DNA from: Candidatus Cloacimonadota bacterium
GTDB lineage: Bacteria > Cloacimonadota > Cloacimonadia > Cloacimonadales > TCS61
Length of the DNA stretch: 64,000 nt
Reading direction: 5' to 3'
NCBI GenBank assembly: GCA_023137125.1
Contig: JAGLPW010000049.1
Span: 204-64,203, forward strand
The notes beneath the pieces are model-generated. The model did not search any database. It worked only from the letters and a program-made list of their open reading frames with translations, and had not been told where the DNA came from. The position numbers and the translations under genes were made by a program. This document shows positions 5,781-56,521 of the stretch, piece by piece. Position 1 is the stretch's first letter. Every line of letters begins with the position of its first letter.

Positions 5781-5895
5781 GTCATCCTGAGCCTCGACTA
5801 ATCGGGGAAGGATGAAGGATGCTATGAAATTTCAAAGACAAAGTGTTAGCGTCATCCTGACGAGTCTTGCACGTTGTTCTTTTGAGGAAGGATAA
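5781..5895. repeat. two copies of a GC-rich hairpin element (GTCATCCTGA-N18-28-GGAAGGAT)
   Basis: GTCATCCTGA occurs at 5781 and 5851. Each copy is followed by a complementary GAAGGAT(G/A). Copy 1 can form a 7+6 bp interrupted stem (TCATCCT...AGGATGA). Confidence 0.5.
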
Positions 5896-6046
5896 GATAA
5901 CTAATTCCGATCTCTGTCGCTCTTCGTTAAAAGATCAGCAAGAAGAATCCTTCAGAAAGACGGAGTGTGGATAATCATGGAGGCAATATAGCATCTTGAT
6001 AATTTGATTTTTTTATTTAGAAAAGAGAGAATCAAAGGAGACAAAA

Positions 6047-42409: not shown

Positions 42410-43233
42410 AAATTGTAGTTACGGGAAGTCGTGGTTTTATTGGGACAAGGCTGGTACCCACATTAACCAAGAAAGATCATGAAGTAATTGAAATTGATTT
42501 AAAAACAGGATACGATATTACTAATTGGGAAAGCATAAAAGATCTTGTTGATTTTGATGTTATAATTCATTTGGTTGCAATTTCTTATGTTCCAAAGTCA
42601 TATGAAATACCAAGGGAAATGTTTAGAGTAAACATAAATGGCACTCTAAATATGTTAGAACTTTGCAGAATTAATAAAGCCAAATTCATTTTTACCAGCT
42701 CTTATGTATATGGAAAACCAAAATACCTGCCAATTGATGAAGAACACCCAACTGAAGCATTCAATCCATACTGTCAGTCAAAGTTAATTGGTGAAGATTT
42801 ATGCAAGACTTATAATAAAGATTTCGGTGTGCCTGTGATAATTTTCCGACCTTTTAATATTTATGGTCCTGGTCAGAATGGGAATTTCTTAATACCACTA
42901 ATTCAAAAACAGATTAAAGATGATGGAATTGTTCAGCTGAAAGATCCTCGACCTAAACGTGATTATATTCATGTGGATGATGTAGTAGATGCTTATTGTA
43001 AAGCTGTTAAATATAATAAAACCGATTTCGATATTTTTAATATTGGATCAGGTACTAGCTATTCAGTAAAAGAAATTGCAGAAATGCTAGTCACTAAATC
43101 AGGCAAAAATATTTCAATTGAGTTTTCTGAAGAACGAAGAGAAAATGAAGTACTTGATACTGTTTGTGATAATAGGAAAACAATTAAAAAACTAGAAATT
43201 GAAGCTAGTTTAAAAAGATTAATGGAAAAATGA
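42406..43233 (+). CDS. short SDR-family NDP-sugar epimerase/reductase
   Basis: Motifs IVVTGSRGFIGTRL and YCQSKLIGED. With the two upstream genes it forms an activate / dehydrate / reduce-type cassette. Confidence 0.72.
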   Translation: MKIVVTGSRGFIGTRLVPTLTKKDHEVIEIDLKTGYDITNWESIKDLVDFDVIIHLVAISYVPKSYEIPREMFRVNINGTLNMLELCRINKAKFIFTSSYVYGKPKYLPIDEEHPTEAFNPYCQSKLIGEDLCKTYNKDFGVPVIIFRPFNIYGPGQNGNFLIPLIQKQIKDDGIVQLKDPRPKRDYIHVDDVVDAYCKAVKYNKTDFDIFNIGSGTSYSVKEIAEMLVTKSGKNISIEFSEERRENEVLDTVCDNRKTIKKLEIEASLKRLMEK

Positions 43234-44349: not shown

Positions 44350-44427
44350 TGCTCTTTTTTTATATAAATAATTTGACAATCTCATTCCATGCAACAATTT
44401 AGCTCAAAGCATGAAAGGAAAATAATA

Positions 44428-44586
44428 ATGAGAATAACCTTTAAAAACCGTTGTCCGAAGTGTAATGAATTTGACCGTAAGCGACTGCAGAGATCGCCCT
44501 GGATGCGTTTTCTTAAGTACACACGTCTTTATAAATGCATGCAATGTAGAACAGTTTACTTGGTGATCTTTGTTAAAAAATATTGA
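44428..44586 (+). CDS. small zinc-ribbon protein, hypothetical
   Basis: 52 aa with CPKC...CMQC. I prefer the ATG at 44428, which follows a GAAAGGAAA purine tract. Confidence 0.4.
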   Translation: MRITFKNRCPKCNEFDRKRLQRSPWMRFLKYTRLYKCMQCRTVYLVIFVKKY

Positions 44587-44811
44587 TCGGTGACCAATAT
44601 CTGTTAATGAGAACTGAATCTGATTCTTCTAAATGTAAATTATTACTTTTATCATAAAACTGAACAATACGGCTACGGTAAGAAAGTAATTGACTTATCC
44701 TGACAAAATCAACAACTTTGCATGGTAACCCTTTATTATGTGATAAATGTTAAATATAAATAAAATAGAGTGATGAGTAAACATTAAATAGATAGAGCAA
44801 AGGAGGATTAG

Positions 44812-45186
44812 ATGAGTTTCAGAACACCAAGCATCAATACGGTTTCAATTTCAGGTAATATCGTTCGTGACGCAGAAGTTAACCATGTAGGTGAGGCTAA
44901 GACACCAGTTTGTACAATAACTATTGCTCATAATCAGCGCTATAAAGCAAAAACCGGAAAATGGCAGGAGACAGTTTCGTTCATCGATGTTGAGGTCTGG
45001 GGCGCTTTGGCCGAAAGAGGAGATTATTACAAAAAAGGTGTTCCTGTGATCGTTGAAGGAGTCCTTAAAGGTAATCAATGGAAAGACAAAGAAGGAAAGG
45101 GTCATTCTAAAGTCGTTGTAAGAGCTGCTAAAATACATGTTCTGGTTTACCCTGAGAAAGAAGGGAAAGAAAAGGTAGAAGAATAG
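44812..45186 (+). CDS. ssb: single-stranded DNA-binding protein (short, without canonical acidic D-D-D-I/L-P-F tip)
   Basis: OB-fold pattern NTVSISGNIVRDAEV...FIDVEVWGALAE...KGVPVIVEGVL. AGGAGG RBS. The protein ends in KEGKEKVEE. Confidence 0.8.
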   Translation: MSFRTPSINTVSISGNIVRDAEVNHVGEAKTPVCTITIAHNQRYKAKTGKWQETVSFIDVEVWGALAERGDYYKKGVPVIVEGVLKGNQWKDKEGKGHSKVVVRAAKIHVLVYPEKEGKEKVEE

Positions 45187-45221
45187 ACTTAATACATTAT
45201 AGAAAGATAAAAATAGTTAAC

Positions 45222-45258
45222 AAAAAGCCATCTGCAATTAGCGGGTGGCTTTTGTTTT
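45222..45258 (+). terminator. rho-independent terminator after ssb
   Basis: AGCCATC-N11-GGTGGCT followed by TTTTGTTTT. Confidence 0.65.
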
Positions 45259-45370
45259 ATTGAACAATTCCAAATATTATTGTGGTATTTTCTCTTTTAT
45301 TAATAATGAAAATCTAGTGTTGTGATTCTCATGACATAAATTTTGTTAAGGATATCTTCGAAGCATAGAG

Positions 45371-45877
45371 CTATTTTCTTTCTTTCTCATATAGTTCAAT
45401 TAATTTGTCCTTGAGTTCATCTATTGTCACTTTTTGATCTTCAATTTTGCTACTTAGTTGTTGATTCTTCTTTTCTAAGAAGGCTAGCTTATTAAGAATT
45501 TCTGAATCATTAGTTTTCGTGTAAGTTTCCAAATCCTTTCCCGTATCTCTTCCTCGTTTTGCAATTTCTTTTATAATTCGTGGTGCCCTCAAACTGCCTG
45601 TTATATTTGTTCTTTTTACGATTGAAGGAGTTTTTAATGTTTCCAGAACAGATTTATCTATCTTAGTTATTCTATCTTTATCATCACCGAAGATCAACCA
45701 AAAAGTATCAACACCTAATGTTGTTGCAATAGTTGCCAGCACATGTTGCGAAGGAAAAGTGAAATTATTTTCATACCTTGCCACAGTAGTTTGTCTGACA
45801 CCGATTTTAGACGCTAAGTCTTTCTGTGTTAAACCTTTAAAAATTCTTATTCTCTTTACTCTATCACCAAAATTCAT
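45371..45877 (-). CDS. XRE/cI-like HTH repressor with C-terminal coiled coil (no S24 peptidase domain)
   Basis: HTH segment LTQKDLASKIGVRQTTVARYENN. I set the start at the ATG preceded by GGAGGG. It is transcribed divergently from the 46002 operon. Confidence 0.8.
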   Translation of the reverse strand: MNFGDRVKRIRIFKGLTQKDLASKIGVRQTTVARYENNFTFPSQHVLATIATTLGVDTFWLIFGDDKDRITKIDKSVLETLKTPSIVKRTNITGSLRAPRIIKEIAKRGRDTGKDLETYTKTNDSEILNKLAFLEKKNQQLSSKIEDQKVTIDELKDKLIELYEKERK

Positions 45878-45918
45878 ATCATAACCCTCCACTATTTGCC
45901 AATATGCATAATAAATGC

Positions 45919-45946
45919 TTGACATATGTAGCTACATGCATATATT
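45919..45946 (+). promoter_or_regulatory. sigma70-like promoter with embedded perfect palindromic operator
   Basis: TTGACA (45919-45924), a 16-nt spacer, then TATATT (45941-45946). The spacer contains the perfect 12-bp palindrome ATGTAGCTACAT (45926-45937). Confidence 0.55.
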
Positions 45947-46001
45947 ACCAATATATATTCATATTGATATTCGTCAAATGAAAAATTAATAAGGAATGAA
46001 T

Positions 46002-46448
46002 ATGAGAGAAAAATTATTTATTAAAGGCAGTGAGTTCATTCGCCAAGGTTCAACCTGGCATCACAATTTAGTTAATGAGCTGGTTGAGTTAAAAATAATA
46101 TTAGGAGCTGAGGGGACCAAAAAAAAATTAGTTGAAGAGTTGGCAAAATATTACACAGGTTCGCTACCAAAAGGATCATATTTGTTGCGATTGGTCAGTG
46201 TAGTGGAAAAATTGCAGAAGAAAGATGTTCCAAAAGAGCTTTATGAAAAAATACCCCTTTCTTACTGGATAAAACTAATTAAATACGTAACACGTGACAA
46301 TGCTCAGGAGATCATAGATTGCTTAAACAATGAAGTGCAACTTAAAATATTAATAGAAAAATTAAAACAGGGCTTTGAGCTAAGATATAACCTTTTCTCA
46401 GGCGAACATGAATTTTATCGAGAGAAAAAGAAAGATGAGAATCCTTAA
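46002..46448 (+). CDS. hypothetical protein
   Basis: First gene of the rightward operon. The AAGGA RBS fits ATG 46002 better than the track start at 45996. Confidence 0.5.
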   Translation: MREKLFIKGSEFIRQGSTWHHNLVNELVELKIILGAEGTKKKLVEELAKYYTGSLPKGSYLLRLVSVVEKLQKKDVPKELYEKIPLSYWIKLIKYVTRDNAQEIIDCLNNEVQLKILIEKLKQGFELRYNLFSGEHEFYREKKKDENP

Positions 46449-47256
46449 AAGAACTATTATCAGAATATCCAAGAACAGCAAGACGTTATTCCAATTCAGG
46501 GATCAGCAATTAGGATGTTACCATTTTGCAAACTCAGCTTTTCCTGATCCGGATCCAGATAAGATCGTCAACAAACAAGCACTGATCCTGGAACTTGGGG
46601 GGAAATATTATCTTCTTGGGCATGATGAAATACTTAAAGAAAAATATATCGAATACCATGCGGGAGATCAACTCACATTGAGACTTTACCCAAATGGGAA
46701 TGCAGCAATGTTCTTTCTCAAATCGGGTTCTTCTGGCGTTTCGGTGTTAAATTATGATGTGAAAACTAAGAAGCTCATCTTTGATGCTTCAATTCTTAAC
46801 GTACCCTATCAATCTCTACATCCAAGTTATATTGTCTGTGAGGAAGGCAGATACACTAGCATCCAGGTACTCCTCCCAACTACTGTCTTTGCTGCTCTCT
46901 CCAGTATTTCAAAAGAGACCCTCCGTCGTTGGAAAGTTGAGGGCAAGCTGATTCCTGTAATAATCACATCTACTGGTCGTTCTTATTACTCACCAGTTCA
47001 GTGTTCTCTGGCCAAAAAGTTACATGATAAACGCTGTAATTCGGCTGAAATTTACTTAATTATCATAAATGAGCTGAAAGAGCTCAACCCAGGTGAAGTT
47101 GTATACATTTCCTGGTTCAAAAATCTGGTCCGGAAGTATTCCAATTCCAACTATTGTTATAGTACATTAAGAGATCTGCTCCGGGAATTAATATCGCAAA
47201 ATAGAATAGAACGTGTTAAACAAGGCTACTATTGTAGCTTTACAAATCAAGTTTAA
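46408..47256 (+). CDS. hypothetical protein with MerR/excisionase-like HTH and C-terminal winged-helix-like tail
   Basis: ISKETLRRWKVEGKLIPVIITSTGRSYY resembles a MerR-type HTH. The tail LRELISQNRIERVKQGYY resembles a winged helix. An alternative start is at 46435. Confidence 0.5.
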   Translation: MNFIERKRKMRILKRTIIRISKNSKTLFQFRDQQLGCYHFANSAFPDPDPDKIVNKQALILELGGKYYLLGHDEILKEKYIEYHAGDQLTLRLYPNGNAAMFFLKSGSSGVSVLNYDVKTKKLIFDASILNVPYQSLHPSYIVCEEGRYTSIQVLLPTTVFAALSSISKETLRRWKVEGKLIPVIITSTGRSYYSPVQCSLAKKLHDKRCNSAEIYLIIINELKELNPGEVVYISWFKNLVRKYSNSNYCYSTLRDLLRELISQNRIERVKQGYYCSFTNQV

Positions 47257-47267
47257 GGGAGAGAAAA

Positions 47268-48215
47268 ATGAAAAAACCATTAAATTACGTGATGGAATTA
47301 CCGAATGTTAAAATTGTATTAATATTCATCTTTTGTGGTCTGCCATGGGATTTATATTCTGCCTGGTGTCTTTATTGGCATATAGGGTATTGTAATTTTG
47401 TAGACTATGATGCTATTGTTGAAGATGAAATGAAAGATAAGTCGATCGCCAAGATGATCGAACTTAACCGGCAACGCTTAGCTAGCAAGAACAAACTTGT
47501 TATCATCAAAAAGGTCCGATTGAATTTTGATTTTCCGGAGATCGCGGATCAGATCGTTGAAGCTCTATCACAAACTGCAGCAAATGAAGATCCGGGAAAA
47601 TTGAAAATGCCGTCTGCCTTTGTTTACTTCTTAAGGAACCATCGGATGAGAAAGTTCATAGAAACTGCATTGCTTGTTAGATTAGTATTCCATGAGATCA
47701 ATAGATTGTGGCTACAATTTAATCCTGTGGGGATCCGTCGTGACTACTTTGAGATATTCGAATATTTTCTGTGGAATGTCCGCAGTATGACAAATTCTGA
47801 ATTGCGCGAGTTTTTCAAGTGGAATGGAGATAATGCATACTATAGATATCATCATAAGGTTTTAGGAGGAGATGTGAATCAGTTCTTGGGTTGCTGGGGG
47901 CTTGAGGATCGTGAAGTGCAAAATAGGAGTATCTACAAAATGACATCTAAGATCTCCAACAATATTTCTAATGCTTCAGAAGGCGCATCCAAAGAACTTT
48001 TTTCACTGCAAAACTCCTGCACGAGCCAAATAGTAAAAAATGAGAAGATGCAATTTCCAAATCAACCCATTCCGAGTGAATTTTTAGGAAATCCTACTTG
48101 GCCTATTAAACCTGATATGAGTGAAGCTGCTTTTCAGGTGCGAAATATTAACCGAGAATATCGATTTCAGCAGTTGTTTGATATTATAAAGAAAAGAGGA
48201 GAAGATAATGATTAG
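47268..48215 (+). CDS. hypothetical protein (N-terminal hydrophobic segment; shares an aromatic motif with the next ORF)
   Basis: GGGAGAG RBS. 315 aa. No known motif. Confidence 0.5.
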   Translation: MKKPLNYVMELPNVKIVLIFIFCGLPWDLYSAWCLYWHIGYCNFVDYDAIVEDEMKDKSIAKMIELNRQRLASKNKLVIIKKVRLNFDFPEIADQIVEALSQTAANEDPGKLKMPSAFVYFLRNHRMRKFIETALLVRLVFHEINRLWLQFNPVGIRRDYFEIFEYFLWNVRSMTNSELREFFKWNGDNAYYRYHHKVLGGDVNQFLGCWGLEDREVQNRSIYKMTSKISNNISNASEGASKELFSLQNSCTSQIVKNEKMQFPNQPIPSEFLGNPTWPIKPDMSEAAFQVRNINREYRFQQLFDIIKKRGEDND

Positions 48216-49983
48216 AAAAGAGATAGTCCCCTTTACCAGATTCCTGGAGGTCAGTATTCTTGCAGGATGGGACGATGAAAGTATTATACAGCAAATGACT
48301 CGGTACCAGCTATTTGTTGGCGGAGAGGAGATCGAGGATATTAGGCATGAGCTTAATGAAAAAACAGTATGCAAGGCTATGATAACAGAGAACCAAATAC
48401 GTCTTGAGAATGAAGAAGAACCGCTGATAGATAAAGATGTAAAGGCAATGTACAAGTATCAGGAAGACTTTAAGGCTCTTATTAATAATTTATCCTGTGC
48501 TACCAGAATTATCAAGAGAGGAAAGCTGCAAAATGTAGAGTGTGCTGATATTTTGCTGGAAGATGTTCACAGGTATCTGGCAGAAAATTTTGCAATGACC
48601 TTCATGGAGTTTGAAGTTCTGGCACAAGAAGCTAAAAATTCGGAGATAGAGATTTTTACAGAGGATGCTTATAGGAGGCATCTGTACTGGTTTTGGAATA
48701 TTGAAGATAGTGATCAGGAAAGAGTTGCACGATATGTATATCATCATAAGGAAAGAGGCCTATATCATCAATATATAAATCCAACGCTGGAGGGGATCCA
48801 GGATATTTTTAGTCCCTTTAATGAACCGGATAAAAATGAAATCATCCGCAAGATTAAAATTAATAATTTTAAATACAGAGATAAGATCTCACGCGATCTT
48901 GATCATGGGCGGACGCCCGATAAGTCAGATATTTCTCGTTTTAGATCAACTGCTGTTAATATCAACAGGCTAGGACACCATGAGGCTCTTGTGAAAACAG
49001 CAAATTATCTGGAACGCAAGTTTGGTGGATATATGCGTAATGAGCAAACTACATACATAGATCCTGATGACATTTTAGTGGTTCCTCACAAAAATTTTAT
49101 CAGGCTTCTAATTTACATTGGCTATAAACTTGATGAAGTAGAAGGAATTTTAAGGAGGTATTGTTTTAATCATATCCCAAAATGTTTTTTAGAGGATATT
49201 TACAGCGGCTGTATATCTTTTGCCGAAGGAAAAGAGATGGTTGCAGAAAATCAGAAGAGAATGGCCTTAAAAGAGCCATTATTTGACTCTTCTGAGGTGA
49301 GAAAAACGTTCCATTATAAGACTATATATGATGCCGCAATACAATGGCCAAGAGCTATAACTAGACGCGGAGTATTTACTATTAACGTAATATTGAAGAG
49401 TGAATATAAGAGGCGAGTTTTCGATCTAGCACATATCGTTGGCATGCGCTACAGGCAATTGTTTGATCTATGGCAGAGGCATTTTAAAGTGGAATTAACC
49501 AGGAATGACTATAAGTTATATAAATATTACTGTTGGACGTTACCGAAATTTCCATTTAGTAAGCGGGGATTATATCAGTATTTGCAGCAGGATCCTACAA
49601 ATGCTCTTTATCGAAGCTATAAATCATTCTTTGATCTAGAGCCACTTGATCTTATTATGAAACTGGGAAAATTCACAGATAAAGAAAGGGATATGAGTAA
49701 TCGCGAGATGTTGGGGAAACTATTTGTTTATCGCTCTATTGCCCTTCAGGATGGAACTCCTTTTCCGAATTGGATGAATAAGTTATTGATAAAATTAGAA
49801 GAAAAATATGATGAACTAGATGAAGAAGAAAATAAAGAGTATTATCGAAAGCAGTTACAGCGAATCTTCGACCGGATTACCGGTAAAGTGAGATATACTA
49901 TGACGAGAGATCAAATAAAAAATATACGAAGACCTAAAAAAATTGAAACTCTGATCGTGCAGGATGAGCCTAAGCCCGAATAA
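48208..49983 (+). CDS. hypothetical protein, 591 aa
   Basis: Overlaps the upstream stop by 8 nt. I saw no Walker or nuclease/primase motif. Confidence 0.55.
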   Translation: MIRKEIVPFTRFLEVSILAGWDDESIIQQMTRYQLFVGGEEIEDIRHELNEKTVCKAMITENQIRLENEEEPLIDKDVKAMYKYQEDFKALINNLSCATRIIKRGKLQNVECADILLEDVHRYLAENFAMTFMEFEVLAQEAKNSEIEIFTEDAYRRHLYWFWNIEDSDQERVARYVYHHKERGLYHQYINPTLEGIQDIFSPFNEPDKNEIIRKIKINNFKYRDKISRDLDHGRTPDKSDISRFRSTAVNINRLGHHEALVKTANYLERKFGGYMRNEQTTYIDPDDILVVPHKNFIRLLIYIGYKLDEVEGILRRYCFNHIPKCFLEDIYSGCISFAEGKEMVAENQKRMALKEPLFDSSEVRKTFHYKTIYDAAIQWPRAITRRGVFTINVILKSEYKRRVFDLAHIVGMRYRQLFDLWQRHFKVELTRNDYKLYKYYCWTLPKFPFSKRGLYQYLQQDPTNALYRSYKSFFDLEPLDLIMKLGKFTDKERDMSNREMLGKLFVYRSIALQDGTPFPNWMNKLLIKLEEKYDELDEEENKEYYRKQLQRIFDRITGKVRYTMTRDQIKNIRRPKKIETLIVQDEPKPE

Positions 49984-50189
49984 TTAAAAGACTCTAGTTT
50001 AATTTATAATTATTAATATAAGAAGTGCAATTAATTTAAAATAAGCAGATATTATGATCTGAAATTGGAAATTATGAGTGAATTTCACTGTAGATATTTG
50101 GAATTTAATTGGATTATTATAGAGACATGTAACTCTATACAGGGTAGCATATTAGCCTTTAATCGGTCATATATATAGAGTATAAAGGG

Positions 50190-50229
50190 AAAAACTCCTG
50201 CAGGCTAATCCCCTGAAGGAGTTTTTTTT
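50190..50229. terminator. strong bidirectional rho-independent terminator
   Basis: AAAAACTCCTGCAGG-ctaatc-CCTGAAGGAGTTTTTTTT: 14 of 15 bp pair in the stem, with an A-run before and a T8 run after. Confidence 0.75.
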
Positions 50230-50252
50230 ATCTCAGGGCATTGCCCTGAGAT
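50230..50252. promoter_or_regulatory. 23-bp perfect palindrome ATCTCAGGGCA-T-TGCCCTGAGAT
   Basis: 11-bp arms around a single central base, directly after the terminator and 36 nt before the Sak4-like start codon. Confidence 0.5.
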
Positions 50253-50287
50253 CTGTATAAAAATTCACAAAAAAAAAGGAGGGAAAT

Positions 50288-51316
50288 ATGCAAGACCAAG
50301 ACTTATCGTTTGAAAAAGCAGTAAAGTCAAAGTTGAAACTGCGCCTGGCAATTATCGGTCCCAGCGGCAGCGGGAAAACCTACACCTCTCTTCTGCTAGC
50401 TTCGGGACTGTCTAAGAAAATTGCCCTGTTAGACACCGAGAGAGGATCGGCAAAAAAGTATGCCGATCTTTTTAAATTCAGCGTACTGGAACTGGAAAAT
50501 TTCCATCCGGATAACTTTATCGAAGCTATCAAAAGTGCAGAAGCACAAAAATTCGATCTGCTCATCATTGATTCACTCTCCCATGCCTGGAACGGGCATA
50601 ATGGAGCTCTGGAACTGGTCGACAAAGCTGCGGCAAGATTGAAGAGCACCAGCAGTTTCGCTGCCTGGAGGGAGGTGACACCTCTGCACAATAAGATGAT
50701 CGATGCAATTCTGAGGGCAGATCTGCATATTATCGTAACTATGCGCGCTAAGACAGAATACTCCCTGGAGAAAGAAAATGAAAAAAGCGTGGTCAGGAAG
50801 GTCGGCATGCAGCCGATACAGCGTGAAGGACTTGAGTATGAATTTGATATTGTGGGTGATATGGATCTGACCAGCACCATGGTTATCAGCAAGACACGTT
50901 GTCCTATTCTGCAGCAGTCGGTGATCCAAAAACCTGGCAAGGAGCTGGCTAAAACTATTCTGAAATGGCTGAACAGCGGAGAGCCTGTAAAGAAGAAGGT
51001 AGTATCTGCAGGAGATAAACGAGAGAGGGACAGATTGATCAAGAATATCAAAACCAAAATGGAGGAGTTGAATGAGAAGAATTTCATCACAGTCAAAAAA
51101 CTGAGCGAGTTCGGAGATAAGATCAAAGATCCCAAAGCAACTGTCGGGATGCTTAAGTTCCTGGAAAAACAACTGCTGCTGATCGACCGACTCGATCAGA
51201 TAAAGGCCACAATTTCCCAGCAGCAGCGGAAAAGTTTCTATCGGAAAATACTGGCAACGAACACCCAGGACGTAAAAGCCTTAGAGAAGGAATTGAAAAT
51301 AATGGAGGCAGCATGA
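50288..51316 (+). CDS. Sak4-like RecA-fold ATPase (AAA_24-type phage recombination protein) with coiled-coil C-terminal extension
   Basis: Walker A GPSGSGKT and Walker B LLIIDSLSHAW. Domain of about 230 aa followed by a tail of about 110 aa. Confidence 0.72.
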   Translation: MQDQDLSFEKAVKSKLKLRLAIIGPSGSGKTYTSLLLASGLSKKIALLDTERGSAKKYADLFKFSVLELENFHPDNFIEAIKSAEAQKFDLLIIDSLSHAWNGHNGALELVDKAAARLKSTSSFAAWREVTPLHNKMIDAILRADLHIIVTMRAKTEYSLEKENEKSVVRKVGMQPIQREGLEYEFDIVGDMDLTSTMVISKTRCPILQQSVIQKPGKELAKTILKWLNSGEPVKKKVVSAGDKRERDRLIKNIKTKMEELNEKNFITVKKLSEFGDKIKDPKATVGMLKFLEKQLLLIDRLDQIKATISQQQRKSFYRKILATNTQDVKALEKELKIMEAA

Positions 51317-52194
51317 AGATCACCAATAACAACGGCATTCCTGAGCCGATCGTCCGGGCGATCAAAAAAGGGTGGTACAGCGGGGCTGGTGCAAAACATT
51401 ATTGCAGTGTAACCGAGCTACTTAAACCTGAGAAAATGTTTGTTCTGGAACAAAGATACAGGGATACGATCAACCAGGAAGCTTCGGATCTTATTTGGAG
51501 TCTTATGGGGAGTGCGATGCATAGGGTGCTTGAAGCATCGGAGACAAAAAACACATTGAATGAGGAGAGATTATTTGCTACTGTGAACGGTAAGATCATC
51601 TCCGGTGGTATTGATCTATATGAGAACGGGATCATCTCAGATTTCAAATTCACCAGCGTCTGGCAATATCTTTATAAAAGTGGAATTACTCTATGGGAAC
51701 AACAATTAAATCTCTATTCATATCTCTATCAGTCAGCAGGATTCGAGGTCGATAAGTTGCAGATAATAATGATCTTTAAAGATTTTTCAGCAGCTAAGTG
51801 TAAATATGAAAAGAACTATCCTCAGCAAGTGGAGGTCATCCCGATCGAAAAATGGGATCTATCATGGTGCCGGCACTTTATTGCGCAAAAATTGGATAAA
51901 TTGGAACGCGCACTCTCCCTTTCTGATGATGATATCCCCGCATGCTCACCACAGGAGCGCTGGCAGGATCCGCAAAAATATGCTGTGATGAAAAAGGGCA
52001 ATAAAAGAGCGCTGAAACTCTTCGATTCAAAAGAATCCGCCACCAGATTCATCTCTTCACATAAGGATAAGAAAAGGCTTTTTATAGATATCCGCGAGTC
52101 GATCCCCAGAAGGTGTAATTACTGTGTTGTAAATAGATTCTGTAATTTTTATCAGACCTACAAAAATATGAAAGATAATTTAAAAACGGCTTAA
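51313..52194 (+). CDS. Cas4-like PD-(D/E)XK exonuclease with Fe-S cysteine pattern
   Basis: Motifs GGIDLYE, ISDFK and QLNLYSYL (RecB-family QxxxY). Cys31 plus C-terminal CNYCVVNRFC gives the Cas4-type C...CxxCx5C arrangement. Confidence 0.68.
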   Translation: MKITNNNGIPEPIVRAIKKGWYSGAGAKHYCSVTELLKPEKMFVLEQRYRDTINQEASDLIWSLMGSAMHRVLEASETKNTLNEERLFATVNGKIISGGIDLYENGIISDFKFTSVWQYLYKSGITLWEQQLNLYSYLYQSAGFEVDKLQIIMIFKDFSAAKCKYEKNYPQQVEVIPIEKWDLSWCRHFIAQKLDKLERALSLSDDDIPACSPQERWQDPQKYAVMKKGNKRALKLFDSKESATRFISSHKDKKRLFIDIRESIPRRCNYCVVNRFCNFYQTYKNMKDNLKTA

Positions 52195-52207
52195 GGAGGA
52201 AAATATT

Positions 52208-52333
52208 ATGGCCAAAGTTAGAAGTATCATCGTTGAGATCATCAGAGAGCTCAGCTTCCTGATCTGGACAATACTGCAGGAGAGAAGAGAAAATCGGAAA
52301 AGAGATCCTGCGAAAAAGAGGAGAATGAGATGA
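52208..52333 (+). CDS. possible 41-aa basic peptide
   Basis: AAGGAGGA RBS 6 nt upstream. Sequence MAKVRSIIVEIIRELSFLIWTILQERRENRKRDPAKKRRMR. Its stop overlaps the next start codon (ATGA). Confidence 0.3.
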   Translation: MAKVRSIIVEIIRELSFLIWTILQERRENRKRDPAKKRRMR

Positions 52334-53079
52334 AGGAGAAAGAAGACATGCCAATGTTGAGCGATGTACTTAGAATGGTTGACAGAAACAAAGTTATAGG
52401 TGATCTAAGAAATAAACACTATCATCAGGTAGCTTACAATAATTCAAGGACAATCATCAAATATGTGGAAAATGATGTTGTATTAACAGCTTTCGCTTAT
52501 AATCCGGGTAATGCTGTTGTAATCTTTCCCAAGGCTAATAAACAGCTAATTGCATATAGTTCATATTTTGACGGCTTTCCTAGTGGACAATGCTATTCCT
52601 GTTTTCATTGGAGCAAGATGGATATGAAAATGGCAATTACTCTGATCAAACAAGATATCTGGGAAAGATCGGATCATTGTGAAGATGTAATATACGAAGA
52701 TACATCATATGCTTCACAGTGGGAGGAACTGGCAACAGGGAATATCGAATATACATCATCATATAGTAACTCAACATTAACCATCAGAAATTTCAAGAAA
52801 ACTTACAATAATTACATCTACAATCGTAACTATACGATCTATAGACTCACTTCTGGAAAACTGAGAGTTGAGGTGGATGGAAAATACTATTCCTATGAAG
52901 AGTTCATTAATATCATCATGTTCTTCCGCAATCACAAAATTGATGAGTCTGTTATCATCGTAGAAGTACCTAAATTAAATACCTGGCAGAAGGTGTTATC
53001 AATAGATGACTTGAACAATGACATATTAGATCAACTCAAAGTGCAGGCAATTTCCAAAAAGATGAAAGAAGCCGCTTAG
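52330..53079 (+). CDS. hypothetical protein
   Basis: 249-aa ORF, Tyr/Asn-rich, with no recognised motif. Confidence 0.5.
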   Translation: MKEKEDMPMLSDVLRMVDRNKVIGDLRNKHYHQVAYNNSRTIIKYVENDVVLTAFAYNPGNAVVIFPKANKQLIAYSSYFDGFPSGQCYSCFHWSKMDMKMAITLIKQDIWERSDHCEDVIYEDTSYASQWEELATGNIEYTSSYSNSTLTIRNFKKTYNNYIYNRNYTIYRLTSGKLRVEVDGKYYSYEEFINIIMFFRNHKIDESVIIVEVPKLNTWQKVLSIDDLNNDILDQLKVQAISKKMKEAA

Positions 53080-53128
53080 GAGTAGATATATAGGCTAAAA
53101 GCTAATAAGCAAAAGCTAAAAGAGTAAT

Positions 53129-53152
53129 ACCGGAGTTATCCGGTTTTTTTTT
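53129..53152 (+). terminator. rho-independent terminator
   Basis: ACCGGA-gtta-TCCGGT followed by T9. Confidence 0.7.
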
Positions 53153-53186
53153 ATGTCAAAAAACAAATAAAAAAGGAGAAAAAAAT

Positions 53187-54194
53187 ATGAGAGCAAAACA
53201 ATTACGTGAAACGTTGGAGTTTTCAATAAAAAATAGATTTCCCGTATTAATTAAGGGATCGCCTGGTATTGGGAAAACGGACATTGTCACTCAGTCCAGT
53301 GCTGCAATGGGGGCTGATTTAATAGTAAGTCACCCGGTAGTATCTGATCCTACAGATTTCAAAGGACTGCCATTCCCCAATAAAGATGGGTCAGCGGCAA
53401 AATTCTTACCATTTGGAGATCTGCTAAGGCTAATTGAGGCAGATAAACCGACAGTGTTCTTTCTAGACGATCTGGGACAAGCATCAGCCAGCGTGCAGGC
53501 GGCAGCCATGCAGCTGCTTTTAGCACGCCGGATCAATGGACATGCAGTTTCTGATCATGTGGTATTCCTGGCAGCAACAAACAGGAGACAAGATAGGGCA
53601 GCGGTCCAAGGCATCCTAGAGCCGGTGAAGAGTCGATTTGCAGCGATTTTGGAATTAGAGGTAAACACAGATGATTGGGTGGAATGGGCAATTGAGAATG
53701 ATATGCCAACAGAGCTTATTGCCTTTATCAGATTCCGACCGAATTTACTTCACGATTTCAAACCCACAGCAGATATCATAAATACACCCAACCCAAGAAC
53801 TGTTGCCAATGTTGGGAAAATGATGAATGCTGGTCTACCTAAAGATACAGAATACGAAATGATCTCTGGAGCTGCAGGAGAAGCATTTGCTACTGAGTTT
53901 TTGGGATTTTTAAAAGTCTATCGGGATCTTCCTGATATAGATAAACTGATCGCTGATCCTGAGAATACAGATGTGCCTAATGAACCCAGTACACTTTTCG
54001 CAGTGTGTGGAGCATTATCGGCATCTGCAGCTGCCAATAAGAAGAACTTTGGCAATATAATCAAATACACCGATCGATTACCAGGTGAGTTCCAGGTATT
54101 ACTAATTAAAGATGCCATAAAACGTAATAATTTGCTGGCAAATACCAAGGAATTTTCCCAGTGGGCCATTAAGCATTCTGACGTAATTTTGTAA
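53187..54194 (+). CDS. MoxR/CobS-type AAA+ ATPase (AAA_5-like)
   Basis: Walker A GSPGIGKT and Walker B VFFLDDLGQA. Single AAA+ module of about 335 aa. Confidence 0.8.
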   Translation: MRAKQLRETLEFSIKNRFPVLIKGSPGIGKTDIVTQSSAAMGADLIVSHPVVSDPTDFKGLPFPNKDGSAAKFLPFGDLLRLIEADKPTVFFLDDLGQASASVQAAAMQLLLARRINGHAVSDHVVFLAATNRRQDRAAVQGILEPVKSRFAAILELEVNTDDWVEWAIENDMPTELIAFIRFRPNLLHDFKPTADIINTPNPRTVANVGKMMNAGLPKDTEYEMISGAAGEAFATEFLGFLKVYRDLPDIDKLIADPENTDVPNEPSTLFAVCGALSASAAANKKNFGNIIKYTDRLPGEFQVLLIKDAIKRNNLLANTKEFSQWAIKHSDVIL

Positions 54195-54211
54195 AAAAAA
54201 TAGGAGGAAAT

Positions 54212-55063
54212 ATGTTAAATGATAAAGCTATGATCGTATATCTTAATATCAGTTTCTGGACTGCCCGTAAATATGATAAGAGGGTGTCGCAGGAGATCGA
54301 GAGACAATATAATGCCGATGAAGCCGGCAGATACAATAAGGTTCTTATCGCCAAGGAGCATCTGTCCAATATCAGAAAAATTATCTCATCTGCCAGAACT
54401 TTTCATTATGAGAATACAGTGCCCTGGGATGATCATGGAGGTAGATTATTACCCACTTCAAACTACTTTGATTATCTAAACGGTTTACGCACTTACCAGG
54501 ATGAGTTTGAGAGAGAGACTGCAAACTTTTTATTAGTCTATCCCAGTCTCAAATATGAGGCCAGTCTAAGGCTGAATGCCCTGTACGAAGAGGAAGATTA
54601 TCCCGATGTTGAAACTCTAAAAACTAAATATGCATTTACTAACCAGATTACACCCGTACCGGATGCTGATGACTTCAGAGTGAACCTAAGTAGTGATGAA
54701 GTTGATTCTATCAGAGACTCTATTGAACAACAGGTAAAGGATTCAACTGAAGCTGGCATGCATGATCTTTGGAAGAGATTATTCAAAGTAGTAGAGAACA
54801 TGGTGGAGAGGTTGAAAGATCCGGACCATAAATTCAAGAACAGTCTGGTTGAGAACATAGAAAATCTATGTGAGTTGTTACCTAAGCTCAACATCACCAA
54901 TGATCCTGATCTGGATACAGCAGTGGATGAAATTCAATCCAAGCTGACAATGAACAATCCGCAGACACTCCGAGAAAACAGCATGGTTCGCAATAGAACA
55001 GCTCAAGCTGCTCAGGAAATACTTAATAAAATGCGGCATTATCAGATACAGACAGCAGCTTAA
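54212..55063 (+). CDS. hypothetical protein sandwiched between AAA+ and VWA genes
   Basis: 283 aa with a GGAGGA RBS. It may belong to an uncharacterised family that accompanies CobS/CobT-like pairs; I cannot verify this. Confidence 0.5.
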   Translation: MLNDKAMIVYLNISFWTARKYDKRVSQEIERQYNADEAGRYNKVLIAKEHLSNIRKIISSARTFHYENTVPWDDHGGRLLPTSNYFDYLNGLRTYQDEFERETANFLLVYPSLKYEASLRLNALYEEEDYPDVETLKTKYAFTNQITPVPDADDFRVNLSSDEVDSIRDSIEQQVKDSTEAGMHDLWKRLFKVVENMVERLKDPDHKFKNSLVENIENLCELLPKLNITNDPDLDTAVDEIQSKLTMNNPQTLRENSMVRNRTAQAAQEILNKMRHYQIQTAA

Positions 55064-55073
55064 GGATTTGTGT

Positions 55074-56186
55074 ATGGAAACTTCTAAAAGAAAATTGACC
55101 AAAGCGAGAGCGGGGCTGGTATTATCCAGCCCTTTCTTTGCTTCCCTTGCTCTACAGCTTAAATTGATAGAGGATCAGGAATGTGCAACAGCCTATACCG
55201 ACTCTGTTGTTCTGGGCTATAATCCGGAATTTATTGCTAAGCTCTCCAATGCTGAATTAAAGGGAGTGATCTGTCACGAGGTTCTGCATATCGCTATGCT
55301 TCATCCATTCCGTAGAGCTGGGCGTGACCAGATGATTTGGAATATTGCCTGCGATTATGCTATCAATCCTATTGTTAAAGAAGCAGGATTTTCTCTGCCG
55401 GCAGGAGCGCTGCTCGATGATAGATACAAAGGTAGAGAAGCAGAAGTGATCTACAATATGCTTCCCAAACAATTACCGGAAGACTTAAATTTAATTGGAG
55501 AGGTGAGAGATTACAAACAGGATAAGAGTGATATGAAATCAAATACTGTAAAGCATCAGGAGAAGAACTGGAAAATAACTTTATCAGGAGCTGCAGGAAT
55601 AGCTAAAGCTCAAGGTAAATTACCGGCAAGGTTGGATAGGATGATAAAGGAGATGTTGCAACCGAAGCTGCCTTGGGGAGAAATATTATCCAGGTTCATA
55701 ACAGAAAATGCTAAGAATGATTTCACCTGGACACAACCGAATAAGCGGTATTTGTACTCTGGATTATACTTACCAGGACTTAATGTTCCTACTCTTGGGA
55801 CTATTGCTGTTATTGTAGATACTAGTGGTTCGATATCGCAGAAAGAGCTTGATACATTTTCCTCTGAACTGCAATCGATCCTTCATATCTATCCGGGAAC
55901 TGAGATAAAAGTGATCTATGTCGACACTAAAGTAGCTCACACACAGACTATAGATATCTATGACTTCAAGCTAAACGCCAAGGGTGGAGGGGGAACAGAC
56001 TTTAAGCCTGGCTTTGAGTACATAGAGAAAGAAGCTGTTATGCCTTCTTGTGTTATCTATTTCACCGATGGTTGGTGCGACTCATTTCCCCAAGCACCGG
56101 ATTATCCAACGCTCTGGGTGTCAACTGACAGAATAAATTTCAAACCACCATTTGGTGAAGTGATCTATATAGAACAGCGGGAGTAA
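55074..56186 (+). CDS. putative metallopeptidase (HExxH, DUF2201_N-like) fused to VWA domain
   Basis: ICHEVLHIAMLH and WNIACDYAIN at the N-terminus, with the MIDAS motif IVDTSGSIS in the C-terminal half. I set the start at ATG 55074, which has an AAGGA RBS. Confidence 0.8.
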   Translation: METSKRKLTKARAGLVLSSPFFASLALQLKLIEDQECATAYTDSVVLGYNPEFIAKLSNAELKGVICHEVLHIAMLHPFRRAGRDQMIWNIACDYAINPIVKEAGFSLPAGALLDDRYKGREAEVIYNMLPKQLPEDLNLIGEVRDYKQDKSDMKSNTVKHQEKNWKITLSGAAGIAKAQGKLPARLDRMIKEMLQPKLPWGEILSRFITENAKNDFTWTQPNKRYLYSGLYLPGLNVPTLGTIAVIVDTSGSISQKELDTFSSELQSILHIYPGTEIKVIYVDTKVAHTQTIDIYDFKLNAKGGGGTDFKPGFEYIEKEAVMPSCVIYFTDGWCDSFPQAPDYPTLWVSTDRINFKPPFGEVIYIEQRE

Positions 56187-56199
56187 TATCCCGTTGTTC
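56172..56199 (+). terminator. hairpin spanning the stop codon of the VWA gene
   Basis: GAACAGCGGG-agtaatat-CCCGTTGTTC (9 of 10 bp pair). The T-run is displaced by about 20 nt. Confidence 0.4.
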
Positions 56200-56521
56200 T
56201 ATTATCAGTCTGAATTCTTTTTTTAGTTATCAGCCGATATGTGCTTTTCCGTACTTCATATTTCTATTTATCTTATATGACTATATTATTTTCTGATTGA
56301 CTATTAAGTTACATTTAAGCAATTTTGGATAAGCAAATTGATGAAAAGGGAAATGATTTTTTAAAAGTGCGTCATAACTCCGATATTGAAGTTATGACGA
56401 ACCTTTTTGGTGTAACTATAGGTTGGTTATGCGCACCTTATATAAGGGCGCAGCGTGCATATGTTAGCAGCAAATTTGTTATAATGATAATTAGAGTTTA
56501 GTAAAAAGTAATAGGGAGAAT

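What the first reader, a model, noticed from the sequence alone, without database searches (positions are those of the whole stretch)
44350..56200. About 11.8 kb phage-derived island with no integrase, capsid, tail or lysis genes
This island lies between the terminator that closes the glycan locus and the hairpin after the VWA gene. Its content is that of a temperate-phage early (lysogeny / replication / recombination) region: a tail-less SSB, a divergent XRE repressor, a Sak4-like ATPase, a Cas4-like nuclease, and a MoxR-type AAA+ with a VWA-metallopeptidase. I found no recombinase, terminase, portal, capsid, tail or lysin gene, no adjacent tRNA and no convincing att repeat. It is bounded on both sides by cellular surface-structure genes. 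It could be a decayed prophage stub, a satellite-like element, or a domesticated module acting in defence or regulation. By eye, the right half (50.3-56.2 kb) is clearly GC-richer than the glycan genes.
Basis: partly seen in the sequence, partly recalled or inferred. Interest (0 to 1): 0.7.

Follow-up and report, generated by a model that had tools for sequence, protein, structure and literature searches.

The report
Phage-satellite-like island beside host ssb gene
An 11-kb block of phage-type regulation, recombination and ATPase genes sits just after the host's ssb gene in an uncultivated Cloacimonadota bacterium. It is present in some close relatives and cleanly absent in others, and it shares a novel protein family and a short DNA signal with phages that carry a terminase, so it is most likely a helper-dependent (satellite-like) element, not a dead prophage stub.

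Summary

**Limits.** The tail-less SSB (44812-45186) is a conserved host gene. Three related lineages have epimerase-SSB followed directly by housekeeping genes, with no island. The variable unit runs from 45254 (just after the ssb terminator) to about 56353.

**Evolution.** Occupied and empty sites are interleaved on a flank-gene tree. All island genes have dN/dS of 0.04-0.35, composition is host-like, and segments are mosaic. In one relative the Sak4-like core is replaced by a Rad52-family core with the same C-terminal tail.

**Missing functions.** The window has no integrase, capsid, tail or lysis gene and no PADLOC hit. One relative has a tyrosine recombinase in the slot after the VWA gene, which is empty in the window.

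**New leads.**
- The 315-aa and 591-aa unknowns hold three copies of a rare all-helical module. Its confident model has no structural match. Its single-copy phage homologues lie just upstream of large-terminase genes.
- A single-copy motif, TTTTTAG(C/T)TATCAGCC, ends the island and recurs exactly in those phage contigs.

**Reading.** A satellite-like integrative element, here without its integrase (confidence about 0.4). The main rival is a domesticated prophage early region.

The parts
44812..45186 (+). Tail-less SSB (124 aa). This is host backbone and the conserved left neighbour of the insertion site, not part of the variable island.
   Evidence: PF00436 1e-21. Present next to the epimerase in both occupied and empty-site relatives. 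Protein 87-93% identical across all lineages.
45223..45253 (.). ssb terminator hairpin, which marks the left junction of the island.
   Evidence: Terminator scan. Homology to empty-site locus L102 ends at 45253. The hairpin is conserved in all loci and sequences diverge after it.
45371..45925 (-). XRE-family repressor with a C-terminal coiled coil. The start may be the internal Met, giving 168 aa and an end at 45877.
   Evidence: HTH_19/HTH_3 1e-12. phrog_8, phrog_4 and phrog_3 repressors. Most divergent gene between relatives: 47% identity against 92-96% for flanks. Gene callers chose the 168-aa form in L004/L005.
45919..45977 (.). Divergent promoter pair with the 12-bp palindrome ATGTAGCTACAT (45926-45937) lying between the -35 and -10 of the rightward promoter; candidate operator.
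   Evidence: Promoter scan: plus strand TTGACA/TATATT, 11 of 12 matches; minus strand TTGACG/TATATT. Relatives carry different palindromes at the same place.
45996..46448 (+). 150-aa protein of unknown function, first gene of the rightward operon.
   Evidence: No family in Pfam, PHROGs, NCBIfam or PADLOC. Conserved in position in L009, L010, L012, L017-L021.
46408..47256 (+). 282-aa protein with a MerR/excisionase-type HTH (residues about 161-200).
   Evidence: MerR_1 23.6 bits (cut-off 21.6) and a weak Exc hit. Orthologues also carry weak MerR hits.
47268..48215 (+). 315-aa protein, one copy of the novel all-helical module of about 290 aa.
   Evidence: Related to both halves of the 591-aa protein. 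Profile A4 E=2e-74.
48208..49983 (+). 591-aa protein, two tandem copies of the same module. The family's single-module phage members lie just upstream of large-terminase genes.
   Evidence: 3 homologues among 5.8e9 proteins and 39 clusters among 1.84e9 representatives. Two module domains. AF2 model of the C-terminal module has pLDDT 86.5 with no Foldseek match in PDB or BFVD. Phage contexts L109-L112.
50190..50226 (+). Terminator-like hairpin separating the left operon from the recombination operon.
   Evidence: Inverted repeat I25 followed by a T-run.
50288..51316 (+). Sak4-like/AAA_24 ATPase (candidate single-strand annealing protein) with a C-terminal tail of about 90 aa.
   Evidence: PF13479 7e-26. 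phrog_1366 and phrog_124. 54% identical to Mx8 p81. Replaced by a Rad52_Rad22 protein in L010, with the same tail ending ELKxxEAA.
51313..52194 (+). PD-(D/E)XK exonuclease of Cas4/RecB type with four cysteines.
   Evidence: phrog_2139 1e-56 and phrog_1706. Motifs read in the sequence: D101, D110-x-K112, Q130xxxY, and C211...C268-x2-C271-x5-C277.
52208..52333 (+). Conserved 41-aa ORF whose end overlaps the start of the next gene.
   Evidence: Called in L004, L005 and L009. tblastn shows it conserved in L009, L010, L011 and L012.
52330..53079 (+). 249-aa protein of unknown function that travels with the AAA/DUF3150/VWA trio.
   Evidence: No family. Found upstream of the trio in L011-L013, L022, L024, L027, L030, L031 and L037.
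53129..53144 (+). Terminator-like hairpin before the third operon.
53187..54194 (+). MoxR/dynein-type AAA+ ATPase.
   Evidence: AAA 27.7 bits and AAA_5 26.6 bits, both above their cut-offs. phrog_1297 1e-76. Best PDB sequence matches are midasin AAA modules.
54212..55063 (+). DUF3150-like protein.
   Evidence: PF11348 22.4 bits, below the 24.9 cut-off. Weak or faint hits in orthologues. Conserved within the trio.
55068..56186 (+). Zn-metallopeptidase-like plus VWA protein (HExxH at 70-74; DxSxS at 251-255). The true start is probably the ATG at 55074.
   Evidence: DUF2201_N 5e-51 and DUF2201 8e-29. phrog_1314 3e-105. 789 phage records hold a relative. Motifs read from the sequence.
56172..56235 (+). 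Conserved right end. A hairpin spans the VWA stop codon (56172-56199), followed by a T-run and the single-copy motif TTTTTAGTTATCAGCC (56220-56235).
   Evidence: Invariant in the alignment of five island loci. One copy in every island-type locus, and exact copies in phage contigs L109/L110 and L112. Absent from empty sites. Homology between L030 and L031 ends 7 nt after the motif.
56236..56353 (+). Outward promoter-like and RBS stretch shared with L009 and L023. It leads into a tyrosine recombinase gene in L009. In the window only ATG-ATT-TTT-TAA remains.
56370..56399 (+). Terminator-like hairpin (10-bp arms, then a T-run) just outside the shared sequence.
   Evidence: repeat I4.

Best explanation
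The unit 45254 to about 56353 is one copy of a family of phage-derived integrative islands of about 11 kb, specific to a Tenebribacter-like clade of Cloacimonadota. These islands occupy one site, immediately downstream of the host ssb terminator. I read it as a helper-dependent, satellite-like element, in the following steps.

1. An XRE repressor keeps the divergent rightward promoter shut through a palindromic operator. The anatomy is shown; the function is inferred.
2. When derepressed, presumably by a helper phage or by stress, the left operon makes a small protein, a MerR/excisionase-type DNA binder, and three copies of a novel helical module. The phage homologues of that module sit directly in front of the large-terminase gene. 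I infer that these proteins engage a helper phage's packaging machinery, either as small-terminase-like recognition subunits or as decoys.
3. The second operon supplies a two-component recombinase: an annealase core (Sak4-like here, Rad52-like in relatives) on a shared tail, plus a Cas4-like exonuclease. It would serve recombination-dependent replication or concatemer formation, and it would account for the element's mosaicism.
4. The third operon (249-aa protein, MoxR-type AAA+, DUF3150-like, metallopeptidase-VWA) is a self-contained phage cassette of unknown role. Elsewhere it travels with its own integrase.
5. The hairpin and the TTTTTAG(C/T)TATCAGCC motif at the right end are a cis signal shared with the terminase-encoding phages, either for packaging or for phage-controlled transcription.

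The window copy has lost the gene in the recombinase slot. It is probably immobile on its own, or it depends on a recombinase supplied in trans.
For: - **Insertion site and presence/absence.** Six occupied loci lie next to ssb (window, L009, L010, L017, L018, L020) and three lineages are empty (L102/103, L104/105, L106/107). On the flank tree, L102 (empty) is sister to L009 (occupied) and L104 (empty) is sister to L010 (occupied).
- **A discrete, maintained unit.** The same gene order recurs in loci whose 591-aa proteins are only 33-48% identical. dN/dS is 0.04-0.35 for every gene. No locus shows structural genes, and the flank after the VWA gene differs each time.
- **Exchange with a mobile pool.** Window-L009 dS is 0.33-0.53 for the 315-aa gene through the exonuclease, matching the flanks (0.36-0.58). 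It is 1.2-2.5 for the repressor and the 150-aa gene, and at least 1.1 for the 41-aa ORF through VWA. The annealase core is swapped while its tail is kept. One MAG carries two versions.
- **Switch.** Divergent promoters and variant-specific palindromes coincide with the most divergent repressor.
- **Link to terminase-encoding phages.** Module-family members lie immediately upstream of TerL in L109-L111, overlapping its start; TerL matches phrog_675 at 1.5e-43. In the IMG/VR contig L112 a family member lies 780 nt upstream of TerL, with two small ORFs between them. An exact 16-mer motif is single-copy in those contigs and at every island's right end.
- **Recombinase association.** A tyrosine recombinase occupies the slot after the motif in L009. 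An integrase-linked 6.6-kb cassette ending at the motif occurs in L030 and L031.
Against: - The window has no integrase, no recognisable replication initiator or primase, no capsid-remodelling gene, and no att repeats.
- The small-terminase reading rests on gene position in two phage lineages only. There is no sequence or fold similarity to any known TerS, and in L112 two small ORFs lie between the family member and TerL.
- The right junction could not be mapped onto an empty site, because the window's right flank (T9SS genes) has no counterpart in the empty-site loci and the source contig ends there.
- Host-like composition and part of the island co-diverging with the flanks fit long vertical residence as well as mobility.
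- The L009 recombinase could belong to a neighbouring element.
- No excision, circular form or packaged copy was observed.
Confidence: 0.4

Rival explanations
1. Domesticated prophage early region. An ancestral prophage integrated downstream of ssb lost its structural half and its integrase. The remaining regulated block is kept by the host because it is useful, for example for superinfection immunity, interference with phage packaging, or recombinational repair. It spreads only vertically or by homologous recombination of the flanks.
For: - No integrase in the window.
- Host-like GC and tetranucleotide usage.
- Purifying selection on all genes.
- The central segment has the same dS as the flanking genes.
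- Always at the same chromosomal site.
- Rac-type recET precedent (own knowledge).
Against: - Occupied and empty sites are interleaved on the flank tree, which requires repeated clean losses.
- Segments have far higher dS than the flanks, and a non-orthologous annealase swap implies continuing exchange with a mobile pool.
- The right-hand cassette moves with an integrase elsewhere.
- No PADLOC defence family matches.
Confidence: 0.3
2. Some other kind of integrative element that is not helper-phage dependent, for example a small integrative, plasmid-like or mobilisable element. It would borrow phage-type replication and recombination genes and use the novel helical proteins for its own replication or partition.
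For: - Discrete unit, patchy distribution, integrase nearby in L009 and L030/31.
- The left operon occurs alone in L021, between an AAA_14/DUF4143 gene and an AbiEi gene.
- The AAA/DUF3150/VWA genes are also known from plasmids (own knowledge, not tested).
Against: - No relaxase, Rep, partition or conjugation family was detected.
- The only informative contexts for the novel family are next to terminase genes.
Confidence: 0.12
3. An inert, decaying prophage remnant with no function.
For: Lacks integrase, structural and lysis genes. One slot is visibly deleted, with only ATG-ATT-TTT-TAA left. L010 carries an 87-aa remnant of a fourth module copy.
Against: - All 13 ORFs are intact in many divergent lineages, in identical order.
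- dN/dS is 0.04-0.35.
- Promoters, operators and terminators are conserved.
Confidence: 0.05

Closest known systems
Phage-inducible chromosomal islands (PICI/SaPI) and other phage satellites. Core features are taken from de Sousa et al. 2023, PMC10085698.
   Same: - Size of about 11 kb and a fixed chromosomal site.
- A repressor with a divergent operon, and a MerR/AlpA-type regulator.
- No structural or lysis genes, a conserved gene order, and patchy distribution among close relatives.
- A candidate packaging-redirection protein related to a helper-phage protein.
   Different: - No integrase in this copy and no primase-replicase.
- No capsid-morphogenesis gene and no recognisable TerS, Rpp or Ppi.
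- It carries a full SSAP plus exonuclease module and an AAA+/VWA module, which are not satellite hallmarks.
- The host phylum has no described satellites. Two searches of the held paper library for Cloacimonadota or Tenebribacter turned up no paper describing such an element.
Cryptic prophage recombination modules, such as Rac recET and lambda Red exo/bet (own knowledge).
   Same: An annealase and exonuclease pair under a prophage-type repressor in a defective element. The annealase has a separate C-terminal tail, as Red-beta does; in Red-beta the C-terminal domain binds the exonuclease and SSB.
   Different: - The annealase core here is Sak4-like (AAA_24), or Rad52-like in relatives.
- The nuclease is a Cas4/RecB-type enzyme with four cysteines.
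- The module is one of three operons in a unit conserved across lineages.
AAA+ ATPase plus vWA-metallopeptidase gene pair of N4-like phages, Bacillus phage G and others (phrog_1297 / phrog_1314).
   Same: - Strong profile matches (1e-76 and 3e-105).
- 33-35% identity to phages SBP1, Presley, G and phiFa.
- HExxH and DxSxS motifs are present.
   Different: The function is unknown in those phages too; phrog_1314 is labelled 'HNH endonuclease', which the domain content does not support. Here the pair comes with DUF3150-like and 249-aa partners, sits in a chromosomal island, and elsewhere forms a 6.6-kb integrase-linked cassette.
Sak4 family recombinases (Lopes 2010, PMC2896510; Hutinet 2018, PMC5928155; titles and abstracts seen).
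   Same: AAA_24/phrog_124 match, and an ssb gene lies 5 kb upstream.
   Different: The nearby ssb is a host gene, not an element gene. The best match is phrog_1366 (unknown function), not phrog_124. Annealing activity is untested.

Membership tests
PICI-type phage satellite (five core components, PMC10085698) | Integrase at one end of the element | tested here: not met
   No Phage_integrase, Resolvase or rve hit in the window block. tblastn of the L009 recombinase against the window found nothing. A tyrosine recombinase follows the element in L009.
PICI-type phage satellite | Regulation module (stl, alpA or merR type) | tested here: met
   XRE repressor divergent from the operon. The 282-aa protein passes the MerR_1 cut-off (23.6 against 21.6 bits).
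PICI-type phage satellite | Primase-replicase module | tested here: not met
   No primase, helicase or Rep family in Pfam, PHROGs or NCBIfam.
PICI-type phage satellite | Capsid-morphogenesis gene | tested here: not met
   No head or packaging PHROG or Pfam family in the block.
PICI-type phage satellite | Small terminase homologue that redirects packaging | tested here: inconclusive
   The 315-aa and 591-aa proteins are homologous to phage proteins encoded just upstream of TerL. They match no TerS family or structure.
PICI-type phage satellite | Induction, excision and packaging by a helper phage | not testable with these tools
   Needs reads from the source metagenomes or viromes, or experiments.
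Intact temperate prophage | Terminase, portal, capsid, tail and lysis genes | tested here: not met
   None in the window block or in any of the syntenic loci within the contigs available.
Known anti-phage defence system (PADLOC-DB 2.0) | Match to a system's signature proteins | tested here: not met
   Only generic HTH matches. A weak Cas4 hit (E=0.004) and a weak mad8 hit (E=0.0014) were the rest. Nothing for AAA335, DUF3150-like, VWA or the small ORFs.
Cas4/RecB-like PD-(D/E)XK nuclease | D...(D/E)xK catalytic motif, QxxxY motif, and a C...CxxCxxxxxC cluster | tested here: met
   D101, D110-F-K112, Q130..Y134; C211, C268, C271, C277, all read in the translation. phrog_2139 and phrog_1706. No PDB sequence match.
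MoxR/AAA_5 ATPase with VWA partner | AAA_5/AAA domain above the Pfam cut-off, and a partner with a MIDAS DxSxS motif | tested here: met
   AAA 27.7 and AAA_5 26.6 bits. Midasin is the best PDB match. The VWA protein has D251-T-S-G-S255 and H70-E-V-L-H74.
Sak4-type annealase | AAA_24/phrog_124 membership with a cognate element-encoded SSB | tested here: inconclusive
   AAA_24 at 91.7 bits and phrog_124 at 1e-11. The adjacent SSB is host-encoded. Activity is untested.

The most novel reading that the evidence does not exclude
[quoted passage not shown] It would parasitise a novel group of terminase-GpA-type phages (L109/L112-like) by carrying three to four copies of a divergent small-terminase-like module with a previously unseen fold. 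It would also carry the helpers' single-copy cis signal, TTTTTAGCTATCAGCC, at its end. The element would bring its own exchangeable annealase/exonuclease recombinase and an AAA+/VWA-peptidase cassette.
Probability: 0.3. Interest if true: 0.8.

Novelty: new variant of a known kind. Interest (0 to 1): 0.6.

Why it matters
- Satellites and cryptic phage islands are known almost only from Proteobacteria, Firmicutes and a few Actinobacteria. A conserved, regulated, structural-gene-free phage island in an uncultivated anaerobe phylum would extend the known range of this lifestyle, and its gene set differs from all four described satellite families.
- It provides a rare protein family (39 clusters among 1.84 billion representatives) with a confident predicted fold and no structural relative. 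The family now has a testable functional context, next to large terminases.
- It gives a natural example of annealase-core swapping (Sak4-like to Rad52-like) on a constant C-terminal tail, which bears on how phage recombinases pair with their exonucleases.
- It gives a chromosomal context for the widespread but uncharacterised phage AAA+/DUF3150/metallopeptidase-VWA cassette.
- If the block is only a domesticated remnant, it is of modest interest.

Tried and rejected
- **Defence system.** PADLOC on all island proteins and accessory ORFs of relatives gave nothing specific.
- **Hidden recombinase, replication or structural function in the unknown ORFs.** Pfam, PHROGs and NCBIfam gave no hits. 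The AF2 model of the whole 591-aa protein on 4 sequences was poor (pLDDT 46). The model of its C-terminal module on 29 sequences was good (86.5) but matched nothing in PDB or BFVD. A profile search against PDB sequences gave only noise.
- **att repeats or a tRNA target.** None found. The terminal motif is not repeated at the left end.
- **Ancestral block syntenic in all relatives.** This was my working view. I rejected it once empty sites were found.
- **SSB as the element's cognate SSB.** Rejected.
- **Mapping the right junction.** The genes that follow ssb in empty-site genomes (lspA, dksA, PNP, yggT, tk, ackA) are not in the window or in any occupied locus, and the source contig ends about 1.6 kb past the window.
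- **More phage contexts for the module family.** The IMG/VR scans with A1, P0015, P0020 and P0010 found none, and the A4 scan failed. GenBank phages had no match.
- **HNH identity of the endonuclease next to the motif.** By eye it looks PD-(D/E)XK-like, not HNH, and it has no PDB match.
- **Literature on DUF3150/DUF2201.** Nothing functional was found.
- **Terminal inverted repeats of the L030/L031 cassette.** Only a weak, unconvincing resemblance.

Full report
**What is there.** Profile searches confirm the recognisable ones:
- SSB: 44812-45186, PF00436.
- A divergent XRE/HTH gene: 45371-45925, minus strand.
- An AAA_24 protein: 50288-51316; PF13479 7e-26, phrog_1366 4e-85, and phrog_124 'Sak4-like' 1e-11.
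- An exonuclease: 51313-52194; phrog_2139 1e-56 and phrog_1706.
- An AAA/AAA_5 ATPase: 53187-54194; phrog_1297 1e-76.
- A DUF3150-like protein: 54212-55063; below Pfam's cut-off.
- A DUF2201_N+DUF2201 metallopeptidase-VWA protein: 55068-56186; phrog_1314 3e-105.

The 150-, 282-, 315-, 591- and 249-aa proteins match nothing, except for a MerR-type HTH in the 282-aa protein. There is no tRNA, no Rfam family and no flanking repeat. The block has no integrase, terminase, capsid, tail or lysin match and no PADLOC system. Terminator-like hairpins divide it into units at 45223-45253, 50190-50226, 53129-53144 and 56370-56399. The repressor and the rightward operon are separated by back-to-back promoters, with the palindrome ATGTAGCTACAT between the -35 and the -10.

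**Phage affinity.** The AAA_24 protein is 54-57% identical to proteins of Myxococcus phages Mx8 and Mx9, and about 45% identical to proteins of actinophages, where it sits in replication and recombination regions. Relatives of the VWA protein occur in 789 phage records, including N4-like phages, phage G and Thermus phiFa. The 249-aa/AAA/DUF3150/VWA set recurs at 54-68% identity inside a prophage-like early region of another Cloacimonadota MAG. That region (L013) also holds Ant, a DNA-polymerase exonuclease subunit, RNase H and a methyltransferase. The AAA/DUF3150/VWA trio also recurs in an IMG/VR contig, L015.

**Source and relatives.** The window comes from a 94-kb metagenome scaffold (ZHAN22-2), and the same population is seen in several samples. 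The 591-aa protein has only three homologues among 5.8 billion proteins. One of them is from Candidatus Tenebribacter davisii, which places the window in Cloacimonadota. In those genomes, and in further metagenome contigs, the whole gene order recurs: repressor; 150-, 282-, 315- and 591-aa proteins; sometimes an extra paralogue of about 310 aa; annealase; exonuclease; 41-aa ORF; 249-aa protein; AAA; DUF3150-like; VWA.

**Limits of the island.** I looked up orthologues of the flanking epimerase and found three lineages with an empty site: L102/103 (91% epimerase identity), L104/105 (Ca. T. burtonii, 83%) and L106/107 (75%). In these, the 246-aa gene, the epimerase and the SSB are followed directly by lspA, dksA, a nucleoside phosphorylase, yggT, tk and ackA, with no island.
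- DNA homology between the window and L102 stops at 45253, the last base of the ssb terminator. All loci share that hairpin and diverge after it.
- The SSB protein is 87-93% identical in occupied and empty lineages alike. It is therefore a host gene, not island cargo.
- On the right, every island-type locus shares a hairpin spanning the VWA stop codon, a T-run, and TTTTTAG(C/T)TATCAGCC. Most flanks diverge directly after that.
- The window, L009 and L023 share about 120 nt more, carrying a promoter-like element and an RBS. In L009 this leads into a tyrosine recombinase (Phage_int_SAM_4 plus Phage_integrase). In L023 it leads into an unrelated 302-aa ORF. In the window only ATG-ATT-TTT-TAA is left before the hairpin at 56370-56399.
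- The right junction could not be tied to an empty site. The window's T9SS genes have no counterpart there, and the scaffold ends about 1.6 kb beyond the window.

**Evolutionary behaviour.**
- A neighbour-joining tree of epimerase plus SSB places empty L102 as sister to occupied L009, with the window next to them. Empty L104 is sister to occupied L010. At least two gains or losses at one site are needed.
- All island genes show dN/dS of 0.04-0.35, so they are maintained.
- Between the window and L009, synonymous divergence of the 315-aa gene through the exonuclease (0.33-0.53) equals that of the flanks (0.36-0.58). The repressor and the 150-aa gene (1.2-2.5), and the 41-aa ORF through VWA (1.1 to saturated), are much more diverged. 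Those segments have been replaced by other alleles.
- Repressor and operator palindrome change together.
- In L010 and L011 the AAA_24 core is replaced by a Rad52_Rad22 core, while the last 90 or so residues, ending ELKxxEAA, are kept. By analogy with Red-beta (own knowledge), that tail is probably the partner-binding part.
- One MAG carries both versions on separate contigs.
- Composition is host-like: GC 0.36-0.41 and tetranucleotide correlation 0.77-0.85 with housekeeping DNA of L102. The glycan locus (0.28) and the T9SS genes (0.33) are the odd regions.

**The unknown proteins.** The 315-aa protein and both halves of the 591-aa protein are paralogous copies of a module of about 290 aa. Some relatives have a fourth copy, and L010 holds a remnant of one. 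An exhaustive profile search found only 39 clusters among 1.84 billion representatives, most of them single-module proteins of about 320 aa. An AlphaFold model of the C-terminal module, built on 29 sequences, is confident (pLDDT 86.5) and all-helical. It has short N-terminal helices, two long C-terminal helices and a basic tail. It has no Foldseek match in PDB or BFVD (E above 0.7, TM below 0.2) and no PDB sequence match.

The informative result is context:
- In contigs L109-L111 a single-module member (P0015) overlaps the start of a large-terminase gene (GpA_ATPase; phrog_675 1.5e-43).
- In the IMG/VR contig L112 another member (P0164) lies 780 nt upstream of a TerL that is 46% identical to the one in L109. 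The same 665-677-aa gene precedes the family member in both.
- No other TerS candidate is recognisable in those contigs.

This is the position usually held by the small terminase. There is no direct similarity to any known TerS, so the assignment remains an inference.

**A shared cis element.** The 16-mer TTTTTAGCTATCAGCC occurs exactly once in L109/L110 and once in L112. In both it is adjacent to a PD-(D/E)XK-like endonuclease gene, about 4 kb upstream of the module/TerL pair. It occurs once at the right end of every island-type locus (exact in L009, one mismatch in the window). It is absent from the empty sites and from the rest of the window. In L109 it follows a hairpin with the same GTAAT loop as the island's hairpin. 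Two metagenome contigs, L030 and L031, share a 6.6-kb cassette: a 176-aa gene, a tyrosine integrase, the 249-aa gene, AAA, DUF3150, a 163-aa gene, VWA, the hairpin and the motif. Their homology ends 7 nt after the motif, and the flanks on both sides differ. The motif is thus a terminal, element-specific signal shared with terminase-encoding phages. I cannot tell whether it acts in packaging, in phage-controlled transcription or in recombination.

**Interpretation.** A decaying stub is excluded by the conserved order, the intact ORFs and the purifying selection. The data fit a discrete phage-derived element that is regulated by an immunity-type switch and that exchanges modules with a mobile pool. 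It is gained and lost at one site, and it is tied to a particular group of phages by one protein family and one cis signal. That matches the logic of a phage satellite.

Measured against the PICI definition (PMC10085698), only the regulation module is met. The TerS criterion is inconclusive. Integrase, primase-replicase and capsid-morphogenesis genes are absent from this copy. I therefore do not file it as a PICI. I call it a satellite-like island of a new composition, at confidence about 0.4. The window copy lacks the recombinase slot's gene and may be immobilised. The main rival, at about 0.3, is a domesticated early region kept for host benefit; the two readings overlap.

**Verdict.** Novelty: a new variant of a known kind. 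Interest 0.6.

Noticed in passing
window 8001-35000 and 40726-43233: The glycan locus is strongly AT-rich (GC 0.22-0.33) compared with about 0.38-0.40 for housekeeping-like DNA. The three sugar-nucleotide genes at 40726-43233 (dehydratase, nucleotidyltransferase, epimerase; GC 0.32) are absent from relatives L009, L010, L102 and L104, so they form a variable cassette.
   Followed up: partly
window 44389-44586: A 65-aa ORF with two CxxC pairs (zinc-ribbon-like) lies in the host intergenic region between the epimerase and ssb. It is conserved in L010 (65% over 51 aa) but split by a frameshift in L009, and gene callers did not call it.
   Followed up: partly
window 56752-57468: The T9SS/PKD protein gene (56522-58303) contains three diverged copies of an 81-nt repeat (63-74% identity), i.e. 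internal protein repeats. The T9SS cargo genes to the right of the island differ between relatives.
   Followed up: no
window 5847-5964: A short intergenic stretch matches an intergenic region of the Ca. Tenebribacter burtonii locus L104 (97% over 34 nt, 77% over 117 nt), although the surrounding genes are not the same. It may be a small repeated element or a non-coding RNA. There is no Rfam hit.
   Followed up: no
L011 and L012 (MAG GH32, JAQICU01): One Cloacimonadota MAG carries two versions of the island on separate contigs. One has the Rad52-type annealase and the other the AAA_24 type, each with extra small ORFs. This is either two copies in one genome or a mix of strains.
   Followed up: partly
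L021 2665-7438: The left operon (repressor, the 150- and 282-like genes, one single-module gene and a 635-aa double-module gene) occurs alone here, flanked by an AAA_14/DUF4143 ATPase and an AbiEi_2 gene. The recombination and AAA/VWA operons are missing. It is therefore a separable module.
   Followed up: partly
L102 3902-4282 and 6278-7525; L104 7486-7857: Relatives carry bAvd/23S_rRNA_IVP-type four-helix-bundle genes and an AAA_14/DUF4143 ATPase inserted among the UDP-glucose dehydrogenase genes. Neither L102 protein found a match in the window by tblastn.
   Followed up: no
L109 7042-9075 and L112 4000-5997: A conserved 665-677-aa protein with no Pfam or PHROG family in either contig immediately precedes the module-family gene in both terminase-encoding phage contigs. 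Apart from TerL, these phages have almost no recognisable structural genes.
   Followed up: partly
window 45371-45925: The repressor's start codon is ambiguous. The 184-aa form would overlap the -35 of the rightward promoter. Gene callers in two sibling contigs chose the 168-aa form (ending at 45877), which leaves a 118-bp control region.
   Followed up: no
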